Of a DNA stretch of 64,000 nucleotides, positions 29,815 through 39,015 are shown one piece after another (positions within the stretch are counted from its first letter, which is position 1; the number at the start of each line of letters is the position of its first letter). A program made the position numbers and the translations under genes. The notes below the pieces were generated by a model that did no database searches, was not told where the DNA came from, and saw nothing but the letters and a program-made list of their open reading frames with translations. This DNA comes from an uncultured virus (IMG/VR IMGVR_UViG_3300032321_001739) (lineage: Duplodnaviria > Heunggongvirae > Uroviricota > Caudoviricetes), in the IMG/VR virus record IMGVR_UViG_3300032321_001739, one strand, 5' to 3'.

Positions 29815-30039
29815 ATGAGAACTTGTCCTACTTTAATTAGAGAAAACGCGATTAAACAACTTAAAGGAAATCAACCTTGTGAAAAATCAAAACCGGTAGT
29901 AGATAAGTTTTTTTGGTATTTAGATTGTTATTGCGCTGAACTAAAACAAACAGAGGATGACGTTCTTTATAATGATGAGCATTATGAAATGGTTTGGGGT
30001 CTTTTTTCAAATGTAGTTCTTAAAGAAAAAGTTGGTTAA
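29815..30039 (+). CDS. Small hypothetical protein
   Basis: 74-aa ORF. Confidence 0.5.
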   Translation: MRTCPTLIRENAIKQLKGNQPCEKSKPVVDKFFWYLDCYCAELKQTEDDVLYNDEHYEMVWGLFSNVVLKEKVG

Positions 30040-31022
30040 TCCTCTTTATCTTTCTTTTTTAATTCTTCTTTGACTTTTTTGAAAACCGTGTTGTAGTCAA
30101 ATTTTACTATGATAACTTTTGATCCAAGAAACTTTTTTGCCTTGTTAATTTGCCAATCCTCTTTAGAAAGAAAACTCACAATATCCGATTCTTTTAATTC
30201 TCTAAACTCGGCTTTATATCCATATTTTCCACAATTCCAATAACCTTCATTATTAAAAGTGTCTAAGACCGAATTAATTGCTTTGTCGAGTGTTTCGGAA
30301 TTAGTGTTATAAACACCTTTTGTTACCGAGTTCCAATCAAAGAACTGAATTGCTAAACCACCTACTATACTTCCCAAAGTACCATGAAAGAATGATTCTC
30401 TGAATTTTTTAGTATAAAACTTATTACTCGAAGAGAATCTATTAAAAGCATTCCAGACTTGTCCGTTTATTTTAGAATTGACCTTGTTATTTAATTCATC
30501 ATCTAACTTTTTATTAATGAAATCACTAGTAACATCAGAAGAAGCAACAAGCCAAACTGAATATCCATCTTCTTCAATTGTTAAATTATGATAAGCTTTA
30601 TCAAAATGAGCACAAAAAGAAGCTATTTCTTCGTATATTCTAAGTAATTCTTCAACATCATTGTCTAAATAATAATGATTGGTTCTACTCGAATATCCAC
30701 CAGTTGAAACTTCTTTATGTATTTTATTAGATTCTTTTTTCTTAAATAGTTTAATTTCATAGATAGCATTCTTAGCCAATTCTATATTAGATTTATGTTC
30801 CCAGTTGTTATAGCGGTGACCACTTTCACCTTTTACTTCTCTACCTTTTTCATCTGCTAAATATCTTTTTTGAGATTTTTCATCTATCTCAAATCCAATA
30901 TCAGTTAAATAAAGAAGTGACTCATAAATATCATTCCAAGAATACTCAAATCCTTCAGGAACTTCAGCATTCTCATCATCTTCTACGTCTTCAAATATTT
31001 TAAATCTTTTTATATGTTTCAT
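30036..31022 (-). CDS. Putative internal head protein
   Basis: Starts MKHIKRFKIFE. Confidence 0.6.
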   Translation of the reverse strand: MKHIKRFKIFEDVEDDENAEVPEGFEYSWNDIYESLLYLTDIGFEIDEKSQKRYLADEKGREVKGESGHRYNNWEHKSNIELAKNAIYEIKLFKKKESNKIHKEVSTGGYSSRTNHYYLDNDVEELLRIYEEIASFCAHFDKAYHNLTIEEDGYSVWLVASSDVTSDFINKKLDDELNNKVNSKINGQVWNAFNRFSSSNKFYTKKFRESFFHGTLGSIVGGLAIQFFDWNSVTKGVYNTNSETLDKAINSVLDTFNNEGYWNCGKYGYKAEFRELKESDIVSFLSKEDWQINKAKKFLGSKVIIVKFDYNTVFKKVKEELKKKDKED

Positions 31023-31609
31023 TTTGTGAATTTTATTCTTATTGCTTCATTTTCAGACATAATCATATCATTGTATAAATCTTCAACTTCTATATCAGAA
31101 TAATCATCTTCTCCTGGATCAGATGAATATTCTGTGCAAAAAAGTATATTGTGATGATATCCTTCACTTTCCATAAAATCAATAGATCTTCTTATACAAT
31201 CTATAAAGTCTTCAGGAATTTCTTTCTGTTGATATCCATATTCCTCTAAACCTTCTTCACCTCTATTAAGATATGGCTCTGAATCACCAAATGAAATATA
31301 AATCTCATAGTCTGTTCCTGTTACTTTTCCCGGAGTGGAATACACCGAAACATCAGCATACCAATCACTAACATCAGATAATTCTAAGAATATATCATTA
31401 AGTGTTGATTCAATCAAATCATTATTAACTGACTCGTTCTTGTATTTACCACCTCTTCGTTTTCTTTTACAATATTGCTTTTGTGAAAAACCTTTTGGGT
31501 TTGAACAATTAATTTTCTTTTTATATTTAACGGACCATCGGTTTTTTCCACCAGAGCGAGGTTTGTTATAACCTTCATTGAAACTTTCCCATCCTAAAAT
31601 AATTTTCAT
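31019..31609 (-). CDS. Putative internal head protein with WSxKYKKxINCxNPKGFSQxxxC motif
   Basis: Starts MKIILGWESFNE; TAATATATA directly upstream. Confidence 0.6.
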   Translation of the reverse strand: MKIILGWESFNEGYNKPRSGGKNRWSVKYKKKINCSNPKGFSQKQYCKRKRRGGKYKNESVNNDLIESTLNDIFLELSDVSDWYADVSVYSTPGKVTGTDYEIYISFGDSEPYLNRGEEGLEEYGYQQKEIPEDFIDCIRRSIDFMESEGYHHNILFCTEYSSDPGEDDYSDIEVEDLYNDMIMSENEAIRIKFTK

Positions 31610-31662
31610 AAAGTATATATTAATTATATTTTTTTATTTATCTTTACCTAAAATTTATATTT

Positions 31663-32286
31663 ATGTCATATTTAAAACTCGTATTTAATTTTATTAAATA
31701 TTTGATTATTGAAAATCCAATTAAGTTATTAATGGCGGTCGCTTCTATTGTAGCTTTTAACTTTGCCGGAACTGTCTCAGGGGAAAATGAATACTATAAT
31801 TTAGTATCACAAGTAAAAGATGGAAACACTTATGTTTATGTTGTGAATTCACACTCAACAAGTGATAATGGTTATGAAGTATTTACTTCAGATAAACCAG
31901 AAGTGGTTAAGAATGGACAACTTCAAGTTTGGAACTATAATGATGCAAACATACTTCTTTATATTATTGGTGGTATTTTAACTTTAATTGTTTTAATTGT
32001 AACAATTGTTGGACTTGCAAATGACGATGATGATATCGGATGGAATATCGAAAGTTGTTATCAAAGATCAATTTCAACACTTATTTATTGTGAGTTAGAA
32101 GGTGATACTTATTATTATATGATTATGGGTAGATTGATTGATAAACGAAAAGACCAAATTAGATACACATCAAATGTAGCTAGAGAAATGAGAATTTTTG
32201 ATATGTCAGATGTTTATAGACTTCCAAAATTTTCAACAAAAACTCAAAAAAGAAACAACAATTTAGATAAATTAGGTATAAATTAA
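31663..32286 (+). CDS. Membrane protein with C-terminal tag
   Basis: Two TM segments; ends KRNNNLDKLGIN. Confidence 0.65.
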   Translation: MSYLKLVFNFIKYLIIENPIKLLMAVASIVAFNFAGTVSGENEYYNLVSQVKDGNTYVYVVNSHSTSDNGYEVFTSDKPEVVKNGQLQVWNYNDANILLYIIGGILTLIVLIVTIVGLANDDDDIGWNIESCYQRSISTLIYCELEGDTYYYMIMGRLIDKRKDQIRYTSNVAREMRIFDMSDVYRLPKFSTKTQKRNNNLDKLGIN

Positions 32287-32290
32287 TATT

Positions 32291-32533
32291 ATGGCATCAA
32301 AAAATTCATCTTCAGGCTTAAGTTTAGCTGGTGTTCTTTTCATCGTATTCTTAATTCTTAAATTAACAGGAAATATTGATTGGTCGTGGTGGTGGGTAAC
32401 CTCACCTTTATGGATACCAATTGCTTTAGCAGTATCAATTTTCTTTGTTGTTTTAATAGTAATAGTTTTATTACTAATCTTTGGATTCAGTCCAGATGAT
32501 TTAAAGAACAAATTTGAGAAATATAGAAAATAA
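32291..32533 (+). CDS. Small membrane protein (IDWSWWWVxxPLW type)
   Basis: LKLTGNIDWSWWWVTSPLWI between two TM helices. Confidence 0.7.
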   Translation: MASKNSSSGLSLAGVLFIVFLILKLTGNIDWSWWWVTSPLWIPIALAVSIFFVVLIVIVLLLIFGFSPDDLKNKFEKYRK

Positions 32534-32563
32534 AAAAACCCAGTCATAACGACTGGGTTTTTT
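32532..32563. terminator. Bidirectional intrinsic terminator
   Basis: AAAAAACCCAGTC-ataac-GACTGGGTTTTTT between convergent genes. Confidence 0.85.
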
Positions 32564-32564
32564 A

Positions 32565-33866
32565 TTATAACTTAACAAAGAATTTATCATCAAATCCGTT
32601 GTATCCAGGATTATCATACATTCTTATTTCGGCCTCATCTGTTAAAAATCCAAACATATCACTCAAATCTTTTTCTTCAAAGAAATCCTTTGCGTTAAAA
32701 ACGAATTGGAAATCATTACCAGTTAGACTATATGCGCCATATTCATCAGTCTTGATTCTAAATTTAGCCTTTACTTCAACATCTTCTTCTTTTTTTTCAG
32801 TAACTAAATTATCAGGGTTAATTTTAATCTCTCGTCTCGGATCAGCAATCGCTTGAAACAATTTTACCAATTTTAACAAATTATCAGCATCTTTATCATT
32901 GGTAACATAAGCTATTCTGGCATTATAATTTGAGTTACCCATTCCTAAATATTTTTCAAACCAATCTTTTTGAGACCGAAACATATTTTCAGTTCTTTGA
33001 TCCATAGTGACCTTTCTCAATATAAATGTCCATTCACTGTTCAAAAGTTCAGAAAGTTCAGGCCACACATCTTTCTGTAGATCCACTAACCTTTCAATAG
33101 CAGCCTTAGGTCTTTGTTCACTGATTTTTAAAACATCTCTATATGATTGAATCTCTTCAGGCGATACTTCGTTTTCGTCTACCTCATTTTCAAAAGATAC
33201 ACCAGCCTTCTTATAAAGATGTTGAATATATTCATCATTTGTATTTATATCAATAGTAGATTTTAAACATTTATCTTTTTCATCCCAATATATTTTAACT
33301 ATTTGAGATGGACCACAATCGCGAAAATGTGATTCTTGATATTCCCATCGATTACTTCCTAAGTAATGTGTCTTAAAGTGATCGTAAATTAGAACTTTTG
33401 GTATCCATGGCATTTCCGCTCTTAGAACACCTTTATTTTTCATATTATTATCAATCGCGTATTCACCTGTAACAAAATAAGGACCATCTGGATAGAATAC
33501 AAATTCACTACGTTGATCTATCATCACCACCGCTTCTTCTTTTTTCTGAAGTCCTAGTTCTCTCCAAAAATTATTTGCTTGCGGTGTCGTTGATAATTTA
33601 TAAAACGATTTTATGATTTTAGCTAATTTGTTTGCATTTTCTCTACTATCCACATATGCTCTGAAGGTTATTTTGTTACCATCGGCCTTCTCCGGGAAAA
33701 AGAAAAATTGAAATTCCTCATCATATCCAGGAACCACTTTATTTCTAATATCATGAGCCCTCTCTGGAAACTGACTTGCTAGTTTATCAGCAGCACTCAA
33801 AGAAGTGGTTTCTTCTAACTCTTCGTTTACTTCTTTCCAAGTAAAATATTTTTTTAAATATTTCAT
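32565..33866 (-). CDS. Putative internal head protein
   Basis: Starts MKYLKKYFTWKEVNEE; TAATATATA upstream. Confidence 0.55.
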   Translation of the reverse strand: MKYLKKYFTWKEVNEELEETTSLSAADKLASQFPERAHDIRNKVVPGYDEEFQFFFFPEKADGNKITFRAYVDSRENANKLAKIIKSFYKLSTTPQANNFWRELGLQKKEEAVVMIDQRSEFVFYPDGPYFVTGEYAIDNNMKNKGVLRAEMPWIPKVLIYDHFKTHYLGSNRWEYQESHFRDCGPSQIVKIYWDEKDKCLKSTIDINTNDEYIQHLYKKAGVSFENEVDENEVSPEEIQSYRDVLKISEQRPKAAIERLVDLQKDVWPELSELLNSEWTFILRKVTMDQRTENMFRSQKDWFEKYLGMGNSNYNARIAYVTNDKDADNLLKLVKLFQAIADPRREIKINPDNLVTEKKEEDVEVKAKFRIKTDEYGAYSLTGNDFQFVFNAKDFFEEKDLSDMFGFLTDEAEIRMYDNPGYNGFDDKFFVKL

Positions 33867-33898
33867 AATAAAAATTATATTTTCTTATATATTAAAAA

Positions 33899-34273
33899 CT
33901 ATCTTGGAAAATCCTTACCTCTTTCAACAACTTTAACTTCACAATCTTGAGGTTGAAATATTTCTTTAGTCAATCTAATAGCTCTTTCATAGTCAAAAGG
34001 CTTACAAGAAAAAATGTCTATAAAACAGTATCCTTTATCTTCAAAAGAATGAACAGAAATGTGAGATTCTGCGATAATAACGATTCCGGTAATTCCTTTA
34101 TCTTCTGGAACTAAACCTTCATAAGGAAAAACATATGGTTGTGTAATAGGAGTCATTTGGATTAACTCAGGTATATTTTTCAAATATTCAAAGTGTAATT
34201 GATAGTTTGATAAAATATCTTTAGGACACCCTTTTAAGTCAAGGGTGATGTGAGGTCCAAATGTGTCTTCCAT
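33899..34273 (-). CDS. speD: S-adenosylmethionine decarboxylase proenzyme
   Basis: G.H...D, GITG..IIAESHISVHSF (E-S self-cleavage site) and DIFSC motifs. Confidence 0.9.
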   Translation of the reverse strand: MEDTFGPHITLDLKGCPKDILSNYQLHFEYLKNIPELIQMTPITQPYVFPYEGLVPEDKGITGIVIIAESHISVHSFEDKGYCFIDIFSCKPFDYERAIRLTKEIFQPQDCEVKVVERGKDFPR

Positions 34274-34321
34274 TATTCATAAGTTTTATTTTTTAATTTG
34301 AAGTTTTATATATTAAAAAAT

Positions 34322-34616
34322 TTGGCCACATCGACGGAAATCCTTAAATTTGTTATAAGGTATTTAAGTTATACCGAAACCCAAAATAATAAATATCCTG
34401 TAATAAGCCAAGACGGCAATCTGAGGTAAATAACAGGCTAACTTTTGCCGAGGTTAGGGGATAATAAATCTGTTGGTCCCGCAGTAGATGTCAGTATCAG
34501 TCATACCGATACGGTCGAACTAAAAGGTGTATGACGTGAGGTGAATGAAATGTGAATTCTGAAACCATTTAGAACCGATTAGTGTTTGATTCACACAGAC
34601 ACAATCGGTTTTTTTT
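34322..34616 (+). ncRNA. Candidate structured non-coding RNA of unknown class
   Basis: Interval with no tracked ORF and elevated GC, with at least 6 hairpins whose G.U pairs work only on the + strand. It ends in a + strand terminator although both flanking genes are on the minus strand. Confidence 0.6.
34573..34616 (+). terminator. Intrinsic terminator on the + strand
   Basis: AACCGATT-A-GTGTTTG...CAGACAC-AATCGGTT followed by TTTTTT. Confidence 0.75.
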
Positions 34617-35364
34617 ATTCTTTTAAATTATTCTCTAATGAGAATTGAACATTAACACTTATATTTCTTTCACTATTATAAGGCATTGCTGAGCCAGCAA
34701 CTTGCCACTGAATTTTAAAGCTACCACCTTCGTAATCTAAATTTCCAATTAACTTTTGAGCAATCTCTTCAACTAAATAAAGGAGTTCTTCTTCACTTTG
34801 ACTTAATGATTTACCAGATGCTCTTAAAGTCATTACATCTTTAGATATAACACCACTTTCATTAAATTTACAAATAATAATCATGTTCCCAGTCCAAACC
34901 TGATTGATAGTTTTATTTAATGAAATTCTCAATTCTTCTTGATTAAAGTATCCAGTTTCTTCTTCATCTAAGTCAACAGAGTTTCTTTGTTTATTATAAT
35001 CCATAAAATTTAATTCAAAGTCTTGGTCATACAATTCAACTAGACAATTGTTAATCATATTTAGTGTCTCAGGATCATAAGCTGGGTCACGAGGTCTTAT
35101 TCCTATTGTCACATCAGACTCTTTAACATGAGTTACTCCTTTAGCTGGTGCTAAATCTCTTAAATCAGTTACCTCAGATGGTTTTCCTTTTTTTCTCTTA
35201 CTTTTAGTTCTTAAATAAAAAGATAAATCTCCCGAACCATCCATAGCACCGACACCTGGTAAACTACCAACAGTTGCACTTACCACAGGACCAGGCCCGG
35301 CAGTTGAAGAAGCGGTAGCCACTGCATTTTCTTGAAACTTTTTATATGATTTGATATACCTCAT
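34615..35364 (-). CDS. Putative internal head protein
   Basis: Starts MRYIKSYKKFQE; TAATATATA directly upstream. Confidence 0.55.
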   Translation of the reverse strand: MRYIKSYKKFQENAVATASSTAGPGPVVSATVGSLPGVGAMDGSGDLSFYLRTKSKRKKGKPSEVTDLRDLAPAKGVTHVKESDVTIGIRPRDPAYDPETLNMINNCLVELYDQDFELNFMDYNKQRNSVDLDEEETGYFNQEELRISLNKTINQVWTGNMIIICKFNESGVISKDVMTLRASGKSLSQSEEELLYLVEEIAQKLIGNLDYEGGSFKIQWQVAGSAMPYNSERNISVNVQFSLENNLKE

Positions 35365-35382
35365 TTAGATATATATTAAATT

Positions 35383-35607
35383 ATGAAAAATAGAATTGAC
35401 CTACATGGAATTAAACATGAAAATGTCCAAAAAGAGTTAGACCAATTTTACTGGCAAATGATGCAAAAAGGACACTCTGAAGTTGAAGTTGTAACTGGTA
35501 TATCTAATAGAATGAAAGAGATAGTTAAACAAGTCTCAGAAGATTATAACTTTACTGTATTAGAAACCACAATAAATCCAGGATCACTTATTGTTAGAAT
35601 TAAATAA
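35383..35607 (+). CDS. Stand-alone Smr (small MutS-related) domain
   Basis: RIDLHG, VVTG and NPG motifs. Confidence 0.75.
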   Translation: MKNRIDLHGIKHENVQKELDQFYWQMMQKGHSEVEVVTGISNRMKEIVKQVSEDYNFTVLETTINPGSLIVRIK

Positions 35608-35889
35608 TTAAAGATATTTAATCTCTGAATAAAAAGGTCTATTAACTCTATGAGACATATAACCATCTATTCCTCTTGAATCCAAACCTAATTCTTTAAT
35701 CAACTCCTGTGAATATTGAACAGGATCTTTACCCATCTCAATTTCCGAATCAATGTCTAATCTATTAATAAGTTCTCTTATCTCGACCGCGCTCATATTT
35801 AATTTACCAAGTTGCTTTCTTAATTCATCAACAAACTCTTCTGGTGTGTAATTAGATTCAAATAATTTAAAAGACTTTAAGTGCTTCAT
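35608..35889 (-). CDS. Putative internal head protein
   Basis: Starts MKHLKSFKLFES. Confidence 0.6.
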   Translation of the reverse strand: MKHLKSFKLFESNYTPEEFVDELRKQLGKLNMSAVEIRELINRLDIDSEIEMGKDPVQYSQELIKELGLDSRGIDGYMSHRVNRPFYSEIKYL

Positions 35890-35935
35890 AGTTTATATAT
35901 TAAATATATAATTTACAAGATTAATATATACAATT

Positions 35936-37387
35936 ATGATTAAAAGATATTTAGAATTTGTTAACGAATCAATAGAACTCGTTTTAGAATCAGATGTAGT
36001 CTATTCTAAAATGTTTAGAACAGCACTAACTAAGATTGATAATCCAATCTCAAAAATTCTTTTAGATGTTGAAAATAAGGATCTACCAGTAGCTTCTAAT
36101 TATTTTGACTTAGCTAGAGGTAAAAATGATACACTATCAGTTATTCCGGATAGAAAAGCTAAAGAGATATTAGAGGGCACAAAAGAGATGGTAAGATTCA
36201 CCGGTTCAGGTGGCGGTTGGTTAAAACATTCAGATGCTAACAAATCTATTTTTCAACAATTAGGTTATGAACCAGAAGGTGATGCTTATCAACCTAACTC
36301 AATTGCAATAGGTGAAGTTATTTCAAAAATGACATCACAAACATCAGGTAAAGTTTGGTGTTATGTCAAATTTCCAGAAGGTAAAGGAGTTTATAATCAA
36401 GAGAAACTTAGAGTTGTTGATGAGAGATTAAAAGAAGTTTGGTCTAAAAATAGACAAGAAGTAAGAATAGGAAGAGCTATAAGAGCTTTATTAACAGTAG
36501 CTGGTGAAAATGTATTGGATAAAGACCTTGAAGTTTTTGTAAACCAATGGAAAGCCACAATTGATAAAATAAATGATCGTTTTCAATATTTTGACGTAGT
36601 TGATGGACAAGATATTGGCCACTGGTATCATTATTCAAATTATAAGGAAAGAAATGGTAGTTTAGGATCTTCATGTATGTCAAATGTGAATAACAACTAT
36701 TTTGATATTTATATGACTAACACAGATGTTTGTCAATTAGTAATTTTAAGATCGGTAGAAGATGATTCAAAAATTGTTGGAAGAGCCTTACTGTGGACTC
36801 TTATTGATGGTAAAAAATTTATCGATAGAATCTATACAATTCAAGACTCAGATGTTCAACTTTTCAAAGACTATGCAAAAGAAAATGGTTGGTATACCAA
36901 GCAATATAACTCATCATCAGATTCTGGAAGAGCAATTAGCCCAGATGGTGAATTTGTAGACTTAGGAGAAATAAAAGTTAAAGTCAAAAGTGGATACTAT
37001 GAAGCTTATCCTTATTTAGACACCCTTAAAAATTGGAATCCAAACAGAGGAACTTTATCAAATAAGTCTGATGATGAGAGTTATAATTTAGAATCGACTA
37101 ATGGTGAATATTATAACAGATGTGAATATTGTGATGGCAGTGGAAACCAAAGTTGTTCAAACTGCGACGGTGATGGTTCATGGCAATGTGGAAATTGTGA
37201 TGGTAATGGTGACGTTTATTGCAATGATTGCAAAGGAACTGGAAAAACAGAAGGTGAAGATGGTCCAGAAGAATGTGATGAATGTGGTGGATCTGGTAGA
37301 GAAAATTGCAACAGATGTGAAGACGGTAGAGTAGAGTGTGATGATTGTGGCGGAAGAGGATCTCACTCTTGTTATGAATGTCAGTAA
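35936..37387 (+). CDS. Protein with SCM...GRALLW...DRIY domain and C-terminal DnaJ-type CxxCxGxG zinc-finger repeats
   Basis: About 7 CxxCxGxG-like repeats plus a terminal CxxC; starts MIKRYLEFVNES. Confidence 0.65.
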   Translation: MIKRYLEFVNESIELVLESDVVYSKMFRTALTKIDNPISKILLDVENKDLPVASNYFDLARGKNDTLSVIPDRKAKEILEGTKEMVRFTGSGGGWLKHSDANKSIFQQLGYEPEGDAYQPNSIAIGEVISKMTSQTSGKVWCYVKFPEGKGVYNQEKLRVVDERLKEVWSKNRQEVRIGRAIRALLTVAGENVLDKDLEVFVNQWKATIDKINDRFQYFDVVDGQDIGHWYHYSNYKERNGSLGSSCMSNVNNNYFDIYMTNTDVCQLVILRSVEDDSKIVGRALLWTLIDGKKFIDRIYTIQDSDVQLFKDYAKENGWYTKQYNSSSDSGRAISPDGEFVDLGEIKVKVKSGYYEAYPYLDTLKNWNPNRGTLSNKSDDESYNLESTNGEYYNRCEYCDGSGNQSCSNCDGDGSWQCGNCDGNGDVYCNDCKGTGKTEGEDGPEECDECGGSGRENCNRCEDGRVECDDCGGRGSHSCYECQ

Positions 37388-37424
37388 TGAGTAGTTAATA
37401 CGTGAAGATTATTAAAATAAGATT

Positions 37425-38129
37425 ATGAGTATAATTACCAAGTTTCATTTGTTTGAGAAAAAAGAATCTCAAAAAGAGTTTGAACCTTCTAAAGAAGTTC
37501 AAAAAGAAGTTGATCATTTTATGAAAAAATGGGAAATTGAATTAGATCCACATTTCACAATAAAAGAAATTAATGTCATATCAGAAGGAATAGAATATTA
37601 CAACACAAAATTTATTAAAAGCAGAATTGATAAAATAATCAGAAAAGATTTAGGTGGAGTTCACGGTCGATGGAAAGACACAGAAACAAAAAAGTGGATG
37701 ACACTTAATCCAAGAATTTTTAATTTCAAAAGAAGATGGAAAGATGAAGACACAAATGTACCTTACGCGCTTTTTACTGTAGTTCATGAAATTGCACACT
37801 GTGTTGACCACATTGAAAAGGTATCTTTTTCTAAAAAATGGCAAGCGATTTCTGGTTGGAAAAAATGTGATATTAATGACAAAATTCCAGATGGTTATAA
37901 GAGATATATTGAAAAAAGACCAGGAAGAAAAATAGCTGGTCACAAAAAATCAGGATGGGTTTACAAAGAAGATTCTAATTTCTGTAGAAAGTATACTTCA
38001 AGAAATCCAAGAGAAGATTTCGCTGATTGTTTAGCCTTTGTTATTTTAGGTTTTCCAGAAAAACTTAAAGGTGAAGGAGGTAAGAAAAAGCTTGAAATCA
38101 TTAAGGATTTGCTCAAAAAGATAGATTAA
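37425..38129 (+). CDS. Zincin metallopeptidase-like protein (HExxH ... EDFA)
   Basis: VVHEIAH and Y...NPREDFAD; starts MSIITKFHLFE. Confidence 0.65.
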   Translation: MSIITKFHLFEKKESQKEFEPSKEVQKEVDHFMKKWEIELDPHFTIKEINVISEGIEYYNTKFIKSRIDKIIRKDLGGVHGRWKDTETKKWMTLNPRIFNFKRRWKDEDTNVPYALFTVVHEIAHCVDHIEKVSFSKKWQAISGWKKCDINDKIPDGYKRYIEKRPGRKIAGHKKSGWVYKEDSNFCRKYTSRNPREDFADCLAFVILGFPEKLKGEGGKKKLEIIKDLLKKID

Positions 38130-38184
38130 ATTGAAATTTTAAAGCTTTTTTACTTTATATATAACTCAAAAATAAATTTAATAT

Positions 38185-39015
38185 ATGTTACTAAAAGTAG
38201 GAAGTAAAGGAGATGATGTTAAAAAACTCCAAGAAAAATTAGGATTAGGAGCTGATGGTTCATTTGGACCAGGCACTGAAAAAGCTGTTAAAGCATGGCA
38301 AACAGCTAATGGACTAAAAGCAGATGGTCTTGTCGGAGACGGAACTTGGTCAAAGTTATTTGGTGAATCAGCACCGGTAGCAGCTCCAAAACCAGCTGTG
38401 GTTATTCCACCATCTGAATTCAAATTAGAGGCTCTTAAAGGACACGTTCCTGATGCGGTTATTGCTCAAATTCCAGATACAGCTGCTAAATTCAATATTA
38501 CTAATCCACTAAGATTAGCACACTTTTTGGCTCAGTGTGGTCACGAGTCAGGTGGTTTCAAAGCAGTTTCAGAAAACCTTAACTATTCAGCTAAAGGTTT
38601 ACTTGGAACTTTTGGAAAATACTTTAACGCTACTACAGCAGCCCAATATGAAAGAAAACCAGAAATGATTGCTTCAAGAGTTTACGGTTCAAGAATGGGT
38701 AACGGAGATGAGGCTTCTAAAGAAGGTTTCAAATTTAGAGGAAGAGGATATATTCAATTAACTGGAAAATCAAACTACACTAACTTTACCAAATTTATTG
38801 GAGAAGATTGTATCGCTAATCCAGATTTAGTTGCTACTAAATATCCTTTAGCATCTGCTGCTTTTTTCTTTGACTCAAATAAATTATGGTCTATTTGTGA
38901 TAAGGGAGCTACCGATGCTGATGTTACTGCAGTTACAAAAAGAGTTAATGGTGGAACTATTGGACTACCTGATAGAATTAAACACTTCAAAGAATATTAT
39001 GCATTATTGAAATAA
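38185..39015 (+). CDS. Endolysin: peptidoglycan-binding domain + GH19
   Basis: LKVGSKGDDVKKLQ...DG.FG..T..AVK.WQ...L.ADG; HFLAQCGHESGGF, RGRGYIQLTG and TKRVNGG. Confidence 0.92.
   Translation: MLLKVGSKGDDVKKLQEKLGLGADGSFGPGTEKAVKAWQTANGLKADGLVGDGTWSKLFGESAPVAAPKPAVVIPPSEFKLEALKGHVPDAVIAQIPDTAAKFNITNPLRLAHFLAQCGHESGGFKAVSENLNYSAKGLLGTFGKYFNATTAAQYERKPEMIASRVYGSRMGNGDEASKEGFKFRGRGYIQLTGKSNYTNFTKFIGEDCIANPDLVATKYPLASAAFFFDSNKLWSICDKGATDADVTAVTKRVNGGTIGLPDRIKHFKEYYALLK

What the first reader, a model, noticed from the sequence alone, without database searches (positions are those of the whole stretch)
34322..34616. Candidate ~290-nt structured ncRNA transcribed divergently from speD
Seen: a GC-elevated gap with no tracked ORF between two minus-strand genes. 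Stems: CCTTA/TAAGG (34342-34360) or alternatively GGTAT/ATACC (34359-34375); CCTGT/ACAGG (34397-34437) enclosing GCC/GGC; CTAACTT/AGGTTAG (34438-34457); ATCTGTTG/CAGTAGAT (34468-34489); GTCATAC/GTATGAC (34500-34535). A possible long-range ACATC/GATGT pairing links 34328 and 34487. Several stems need G.U pairs that exist only on the + strand, and the final hairpin has its U-tract on the + strand, where no gene precedes it. A palindromic TATATA at 34307-34312 could fire in both directions. I do not recognise tRNA, tmRNA, RNase P or SAM-riboswitch signatures, so it may be a new RNA class.
Basis: partly seen in the sequence, partly recalled or inferred. Interest (0 to 1): 0.72.

Follow-up and report, generated by a model that had tools for sequence, protein, structure and literature searches.

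The report
Four-pseudoknot RNA gene of megaphages
A group of very large bacterial viruses keeps a free-standing gene for a 260-letter RNA that folds into four knots; it fits no catalogued RNA family, is not a control switch for the neighbouring enzyme gene, and its job is still unproven.

Summary
Real, with revised limits and fold. Window 34357-34616 (+) is a free-standing non-coding RNA gene of a Bacteroidota megaphage: a host-type TTTG/TAnnTTTG promoter, about 260 nt, and an intrinsic terminator. I found 19 distinct versions, all on phage or phage-like contigs, one full copy in each of 8 carrier records searched. On an unfitted 18-row alignment 96.5% of pair cells hold and 19 of 49 pairs show double changes (0 of 500 shuffles). 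A homolog at about 55% identity keeps the downstream helices and rewrites a kissing loop on both sides. Fold: 5' hairpin, A-rich linker, two kissing loops (one uses the terminator loop) and two H-type pseudoknots. It is not tied to speD (adjacent in 7 of 17 informative loci). No Rfam match; not tmRNA, because four carriers hold a separate tmRNA. Most likely a stable trans-acting decoy or scaffold for a protein of translation or RNA turnover (inferred, about 0.35). Expression could not be tested. This scan noted the same RNA before on another genome (e1-6079200).

The parts
33899..34273 (-). speD-like gene (AdoMet decarboxylase, PF02675); a neighbour, not part of the RNA
   Evidence: directly upstream of the RNA in 7 of 17 loci with enough upstream DNA
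34307..34315 (-). TAATATATA motif 42 nt before the speD start; probable phage promoter element for speD (inferred)
   Evidence: 16 of 19 such sites in the window lie in sense orientation within 60 nt of an ORF start
34321..34324 (+). -33 box TTTG of the Bacteroidota housekeeping promoter
   Evidence: 20-nt spacer to the -7 box; present in 11 of 18 distinct versions; consensus in PMC2483708 passages
34345..34352 (+). -7 box TAnnTTTG
   Evidence: same place in 18 of 18 versions and in L550; identity to the window 0.87 against 0.53 in the spacer
34357..34616 (+). the RNA gene, about 260 nt; start inferred from the promoter, end at the U tract
34359..34375 (+). P1, 5' hairpin, followed by a conserved GAAA
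   Evidence: double changes in L195, L196, L204; replaced in L550; reused before a different sequence in L013
34376..34396 (+). A-rich single-stranded linker, variable in length
34397..34437 (+). P2: outer stem 34397-34401/34433-34437, A-rich internal loop, inner stem 34407-34413/34420-34427, 6-nt loop 34414-34419
34438..34457 (+). P3 hairpin; loop bases 34445-34450 kiss the P2 loop (PK1)
   Evidence: 6 of 6 pairs in 19 of 19 versions; one pair changed on both sides in 5 of 18 and three pairs in L550
34458..34489 (+). PK2, H-type: 34458-34462/34476-34480 plus 34470-34473/34481-34484 (alternative register 34468-34475/34482-34489)
   Evidence: first stem: double changes in 2 pairs on the model-fitted alignment and rewritten in L550; second stem invariant, register unresolved
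34494..34535 (+). PK3, H-type: 34494-34498/34508-34512 plus 34500-34507/34527-34535
   Evidence: 5 of 5 and 6 of 8 pairs with double changes, 100% of cells paired
34540..34566 (+). P7 two-part stem; loop bases 34551-34555 kiss the terminator loop (PK4)
34574..34616 (+). P8 terminator hairpin with U tract; loop bases 34591-34595 form PK4
   Evidence: 12 of 13 stem pairs with double changes on the fitted alignment; kiss pair U-A to C-G in L010, L196, L204; terminator scan
34615..35364 (-). convergent 249-aa ORF of no Pfam family; its stop touches the U tract

Best explanation
A free-standing phage non-coding RNA gene (about 0.93 on this much). Shown: a conserved Bacteroidota -7 box, a terminator, and helices kept by double changes, among them two kissing loops and two H-type pseudoknots. 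Inferred: host RNA polymerase makes a 260-nt RNA; the 5' hairpin and the kiss that ties the terminator loop back onto P7 shield both ends, so it accumulates as a compact, nuclease-resistant RNA. It has no downstream gene on its strand and no conserved antisense target, so it acts in trans through shape. The mechanism I think most likely (about 0.35; the confidence figure is for this step) is a decoy or scaffold for a protein of translation or RNA turnover, such as an S1-type OB-fold protein on or off the ribosome, held by the A-rich linker and the pseudoknots, as one part of these phages' takeover of host translation.
For: Covariation: unfitted; fitted; distant homolog. Promoter and terminator. 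Neighbours vary while the RNA stays. One full copy in each of 8 carrier records. The four near-complete carriers (G001, G008, W01, W02) also encode tRNA arrays (seen for G001, W01, W02), tmRNA, SmpB, bS21 (129), two S1-domain proteins, one of them RNase R-like, and GOLLD. In G001 the tmRNA and the tRNA-Met/GOLLD region are also preceded by TAnnTTTG. That S1 binds pseudoknots and A/U-rich single strands is recalled, from no call.
Against: No transcript data could be had. No partner was identified. SmpB, bS21, S1, the RNase R-like gene and GOLLD are all present in G006, in which the RNA was not found, so they set the scene but do not single out a partner. In-clade double changes may be few events: the tree leaves the basal fork open. 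The family is small and narrow: 1 of 34, 1 of 50 (the same record) and 0 of 50 related phage records matched.
Confidence: 0.38

Rival explanations
1. An RNA-only assembly unit: the two kissing pairs form between molecules and build rings or cages, as GOLLD and ROOL do, or as phi29 prohead RNA does (recalled).
For: Two complementary, non-palindromic loop pairs kept by double changes. In ROOL and GOLLD, kissing contacts first found by covariation proved to be intermolecular (10.1101/2024.12.08.627333, passages). The same phages carry GOLLD.
Against: Both kisses join neighbouring hairpins; P2a stacked on P3 (about 11 bp) beside P2b plus the kiss (about 13 bp) fits an intramolecular fold (inference). 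No self-complementary loops seen. At 260 nt it is far smaller than ROOL or GOLLD. No packaging genes beside it.
Confidence: 0.2
2. An anti-defence decoy: a string of pseudoknots that mimics type III antitoxin RNAs or soaks up a host defence nuclease (pseudo-ToxI precedent recalled).
For: Host-promoter expression suits an early anti-defence role; tandem H-type pseudoknots with A-rich spacers; patchy occurrence among related phages.
Against: The four modules differ from each other rather than repeat; no Rfam antitoxin match to E 5; strong conservation and fixed synteny in most carriers are unusual for arms-race genes (inference).
Confidence: 0.18
3. A ribozyme or a ligand-binding RNA acting in trans.
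For: Invariant bases around PK2 and dense pseudoknotting.
Against: No catalogued ribozyme or riboswitch match; no exons, no gene downstream on its strand, no reverse transcriptase in 10 of 10 records searched.
Confidence: 0.1
4. A cis regulator or SAM/polyamine sensor of speD.
For: speD lies directly upstream, divergent, in 7 of 17 informative loci.
Against: Opposite strand, outside the speD leader; no adjacent speD in 10 of 17 loci and in L550; 0 of 6 other speD-bearing phage records carry the RNA; speD has its own TAATATATA element.
Confidence: 0.03
5. The mRNA-like, pseudoknot half of a split tmRNA.
For: The order hairpin, A-rich linker ending in UAA, then pseudoknots resembles tmRNA; carriers have SmpB, and Rfam found no tmRNA over its cut-off in them.
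Against: All four near-complete carriers hold a separate full-length tmRNA-like gene that Rfam and ARAGORN missed. No tRNA-like-only piece in G001. No reading frame fixed to P1. The RNA model does not match 5 tmRNA loci.
Confidence: 0.02

Closest known systems
GOLLD (RF02032) and ROOL, orphan ornate RNAs of phages
   Same: Phage-encoded, free-standing, rich in pseudoknots and kissing loops, function unknown; GOLLD occurs in the same genomes.
   Different: No Rfam match; 260 nt against 659 to over 800 nt; not in a tRNA island (no tRNA in the window); different helix order.
tmRNA (RF00023)
   Same: A chain of pseudoknots after an A-rich single strand.
   Different: No tRNA-like domain, no closing helix, no fixed tag frame; the carriers have their own tmRNA elsewhere.
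Type III antitoxin RNAs (ToxI type) and phage mimics of them (recalled)
   Same: H-type pseudoknots spaced by A-rich stretches.
   Different: Modules are not repeats; no toxin gene beside it among the neighbours scanned; no Rfam match.
phi29 prohead RNA (recalled)
   Same: A phage RNA with complementary loop pairs.
   Different: No Rfam match; no packaging genes nearby; four knots and a terminator-loop kiss.

Membership tests
Any Rfam 15 family | match at the gathering score, or any match to E 5 | tested here: not met
   0 at gathering in the whole window; none of 10 weak matches in 30000-39000 overlaps the RNA; none on the L550 RNA to E 1
tmRNA | tRNA-like domain: paired ends with G.U at the third pair, T arm, CCA | tested here: not met
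   ARAGORN 0 genes; the 5' end is its own hairpin and the 3' end a terminator
tmRNA | conserved tag reading frame | tested here: not met
   peptides recur in different frames across 18 rows, two frames look equally conserved, each has exceptions
SAM riboswitches | in the leader, on the strand, of a SAM-related gene | tested here: not met
   opposite strand to speD; speD adjacent in 7 of 17
SAM riboswitches | binds SAM | not testable with these tools
   needs in-line probing
GOLLD / ROOL | match to the family model | tested here: not met
   the true GOLLD of G001 scores 294 bits at another place
GOLLD / ROOL | protein-free multimer through kissing loops | not testable with these tools
   kissing pairs shown by covariation; intra- or intermolecular cannot be told from sequence
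Retron / DRT-type RT-associated RNA | reverse transcriptase gene beside the RNA or in the genome | tested here: not met
   PF00078 in 0 of 10 records; none among neighbours
Y RNA (Ro60 partner) | 5' and 3' ends paired in a stem; co-occurrence with a TROVE protein | tested here: not met
   ends not paired to each other; TROVE hit in 3 of 4 near-complete carriers and in non-carrier G004
Antisense sRNA | conserved complementarity to a target | tested here: inconclusive
   none above shuffles for three 16S and one 23S rRNA of Bacteroidota, and no same-site match to own tmRNA or GOLLD in all 4 genomes; mRNAs not tested; true host unknown
RNase P, 6S, SRP, group I intron | family model match; closing helix or splice context (hallmarks recalled) | tested here: not met
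   own promoter and terminator, no end-to-end helix

The most novel reading that the evidence does not exclude
A new functional class of phage RNA: a self-capped, four-knot RNA in which the terminator hairpin doubles as a structural lock, and which captures host ribosomes or their S1 protein, or builds a protein-free assembly, to steer translation during megaphage infection; its 5' hairpin-GAAA is a portable tag reused on a second phage transcript (L013).
Probability: 0.3. Interest if true: 0.88.

Novelty: new variant of a known kind. Interest (0 to 1): 0.68.

Why it matters
Orphan ornate RNAs are where new RNA biochemistry has turned up. This one is small enough to probe, mutate and solve, comes with a tested helix map and natural compensatory variants, and sits in phages that carry an unusually full translation kit. 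A terminator loop used as a conserved kissing partner is an unusual design. It would make the question of what phage ornate RNAs do testable on a 260-nt molecule.

Tried and rejected
Split tmRNA: pursued after seemed to show SmpB without tmRNA in carriers and tmRNA only in non-carriers; dropped when a divergent full-length tmRNA was found in all four near-complete carriers. Tag frame in the linker: not fixed. speD link: rejected. rRNA, tmRNA and GOLLD complementarity: nothing above controls; the best, a 9-mer to 23S shared by 10 of 14 rows, was reached by 4 of 40 shuffles and falls on a paired strand. Host copies: 0 exact pattern matches in genome contigs; 0 of 151 Bacteroidota genomes with the model, only 13 candidates scored per genome and no positive control in that call. 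Neighbour-gene loci gave only known copies (6 of 80, 3 of 80). One search used a mis-registered structure string and is discarded; one search replaces it. No whole genome and no sequencing-run search was available for this window, so expression is untested.

Full report
Setting. The window is A+T-rich phage DNA without tRNA genes. Its RpiB-like gene is closest to Bacteroidota genes (best hits 56-60% identity). The gap lies between a speD-like gene (PF02675) and a 249-aa ORF, both on the - strand. Rfam gives nothing at gathering scores in the window and nothing over the gap to E 5.

Homologs. blastn found the gap in two phage records of 635 and 642 kb and in a 436-kb relative. Pattern scans added more: 2 of 2, 5 of 6, 9 of 119 metagenome hits and 9 of 21 viral hits. 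After removing identical copies there are 18 versions including the window, down to about 63% identity. A covariance model (R1) found one full copy in each of 8 of 14 phage records, plus one weak partial match in W02, and a distant 19th version, L550, in 1 of 34 further records (34.6 bits, E 1.5e-8, 48-58% identity). A second model including it found no more. It was not found in the bacterial genomes searched. A paper on huge phages describes genomes above 634 kb as Bacteroidetes phages of the Mahaphage clade that carry tmRNA, SmpB and other translation genes (PMC7162821, passages); that the carriers belong there is my inference from size and gene content.

Limits of the gene. Every version has TAnnTTTG four bases before the conserved start (18 of 18; the script used the box to set limits but dropped no homolog; also L550), and 11 of 18 have TTTG about 20 nt upstream. 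This is the Bacteroidetes -33/-7 promoter (PMC2483708, passages). The spacer is poorly kept (0.53) while the box (0.87) and the body (0.84) are kept. The RNA therefore starts near 34357, not 34322; the start is inferred, not mapped. The 3' end is a hairpin plus U tract in all versions.

Fold. On the plain MAFFT alignment A4, 49 named pairs give 96.5% paired cells and 19 pairs with double changes; 0 of 500 shuffles reach this, and slid partners give 27-43% (the structure was read from these sequences, so the controls lean in its favour). The model-fitted alignment gives 37 of 54 nested pairs with double changes. Order: P1 hairpin; A-rich linker; P2, whose 6-nt loop kisses the loop of P3 (PK1); H-type PK2; H-type PK3; P7, whose loop kisses the loop of the terminator hairpin (PK4). 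PK1 is complete in 19 of 19 versions, with CGGYAA/UURCCG in 18 and CCCUAA/UUAGGG in L550; PK4 has 4 to 8 pairs in 19 of 19, with a U-A to C-G change in 3. The tree leaves the basal fork open, so the in-clade changes in PK1 and PK4 may be one or two events each (14 of the 19 versions); L550 is independent support for PK1. P1 is replaced in L550.

Context. Of 19 loci mapped, 2 were too short upstream; speD is directly upstream in 7 of 17, a small membrane-protein gene on the RNA's strand in 8, and other DNA in 2 (two of these loci carry the same RNA sequence). L550 has other neighbours. Six other speD-bearing records lack the RNA (five are under 90% complete). No gene follows on the RNA's strand inside the terminator. 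It is a stand-alone gene in a mostly syntenic region.

Function. Split tmRNA was tested and rejected: the four near-complete carriers have SmpB and, although Rfam missed it, a full-length tmRNA-like gene with acceptor stem, G.U pair and long tag frame. No reverse transcriptase, no match to Ro60 distribution, no conserved rRNA complementarity. The carriers hold bS21, S1-domain proteins, an RNase R-like gene and GOLLD, but so does G006, in which the RNA was not found. I commit to a stable trans-acting decoy or scaffold for a translation or RNA-turnover protein (about 0.35-0.4), ahead of an RNA-only multimer (0.2; precedent in 10.1101/2024.12.08.627333, passages), an anti-defence decoy (0.18) and a ribozyme or ligand binder (0.1). 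Gene limits and helices rest on comparative evidence; expression, end protection and partner are inferred.

Novelty. No Rfam family fits. Nine paper searches listed no description of it; for most listed papers I saw only the listing and the start of the abstract. For the viral structured-RNA catalogue PMC10690425 I saw the listing and searched 3 of 6 held supplements for a core motif with no hit; its alignment archives and three further files could not be read, so an unnamed entry there is not excluded. It is a new structural class within the known kind of orphan ornate phage RNAs.

Noticed in passing
L356:3110-3490 (-) (G001); L383, L384, L386 (W01, W02, G008): A divergent full-length tmRNA-like gene with an unusual T loop and a tag frame of about 30 codons, missed by both RF00023 and ARAGORN, in four megaphages.
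   Followed up: partly
L013:1400-1525 (-) (LR756502.1): The same promoter and P1 hairpin-GAAA stand before a different 110-nt sequence with three possible hairpins; one example only, fold z -1.24.
   Followed up: partly
L312, L336, L337: Canonical tmRNAs of related phages carry long tags (17 to 31 codons as called by ARAGORN).
   Followed up: no
L344:16071-16481 (-); L387-L389: GOLLD RNA after tRNA-Met in G001, and in W01, W02, G008 and G006.
   Followed up: partly
L308:1501-1592 and L344:17118-17204 (-): A tRNA-like gene with an anticodon ARAGORN cannot assign, near GOLLD in W01 and G001.
   Followed up: no
L314:1501-1569 (G006): tRNA-Ala-like RNA with a G.U third pair and a shrunken anticodon arm; an amber-anticodon tRNA is called nearby.
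   Followed up: no
window, 19 sites: TAATATATA precedes many genes whose products start with a shared MK(H/Y)(L/I)K..F-type peptide; probably a phage promoter class.
   Followed up: partly
L103:257-1009: The homolog of the window's 249-aa ORF is split into two ORFs here and occurs as an 80-aa form in several other loci.
   Followed up: no
L352:6844-8295 (-): Phage protein with TROVE and vWA matches (Ro60-like) in G001, G008, W01 and G004; a Y-like RNA partner was not sought.
   Followed up: no
window:32530-32565: A terminator-like hairpin between convergent genes that draws several weak Rfam matches.
   Followed up: no
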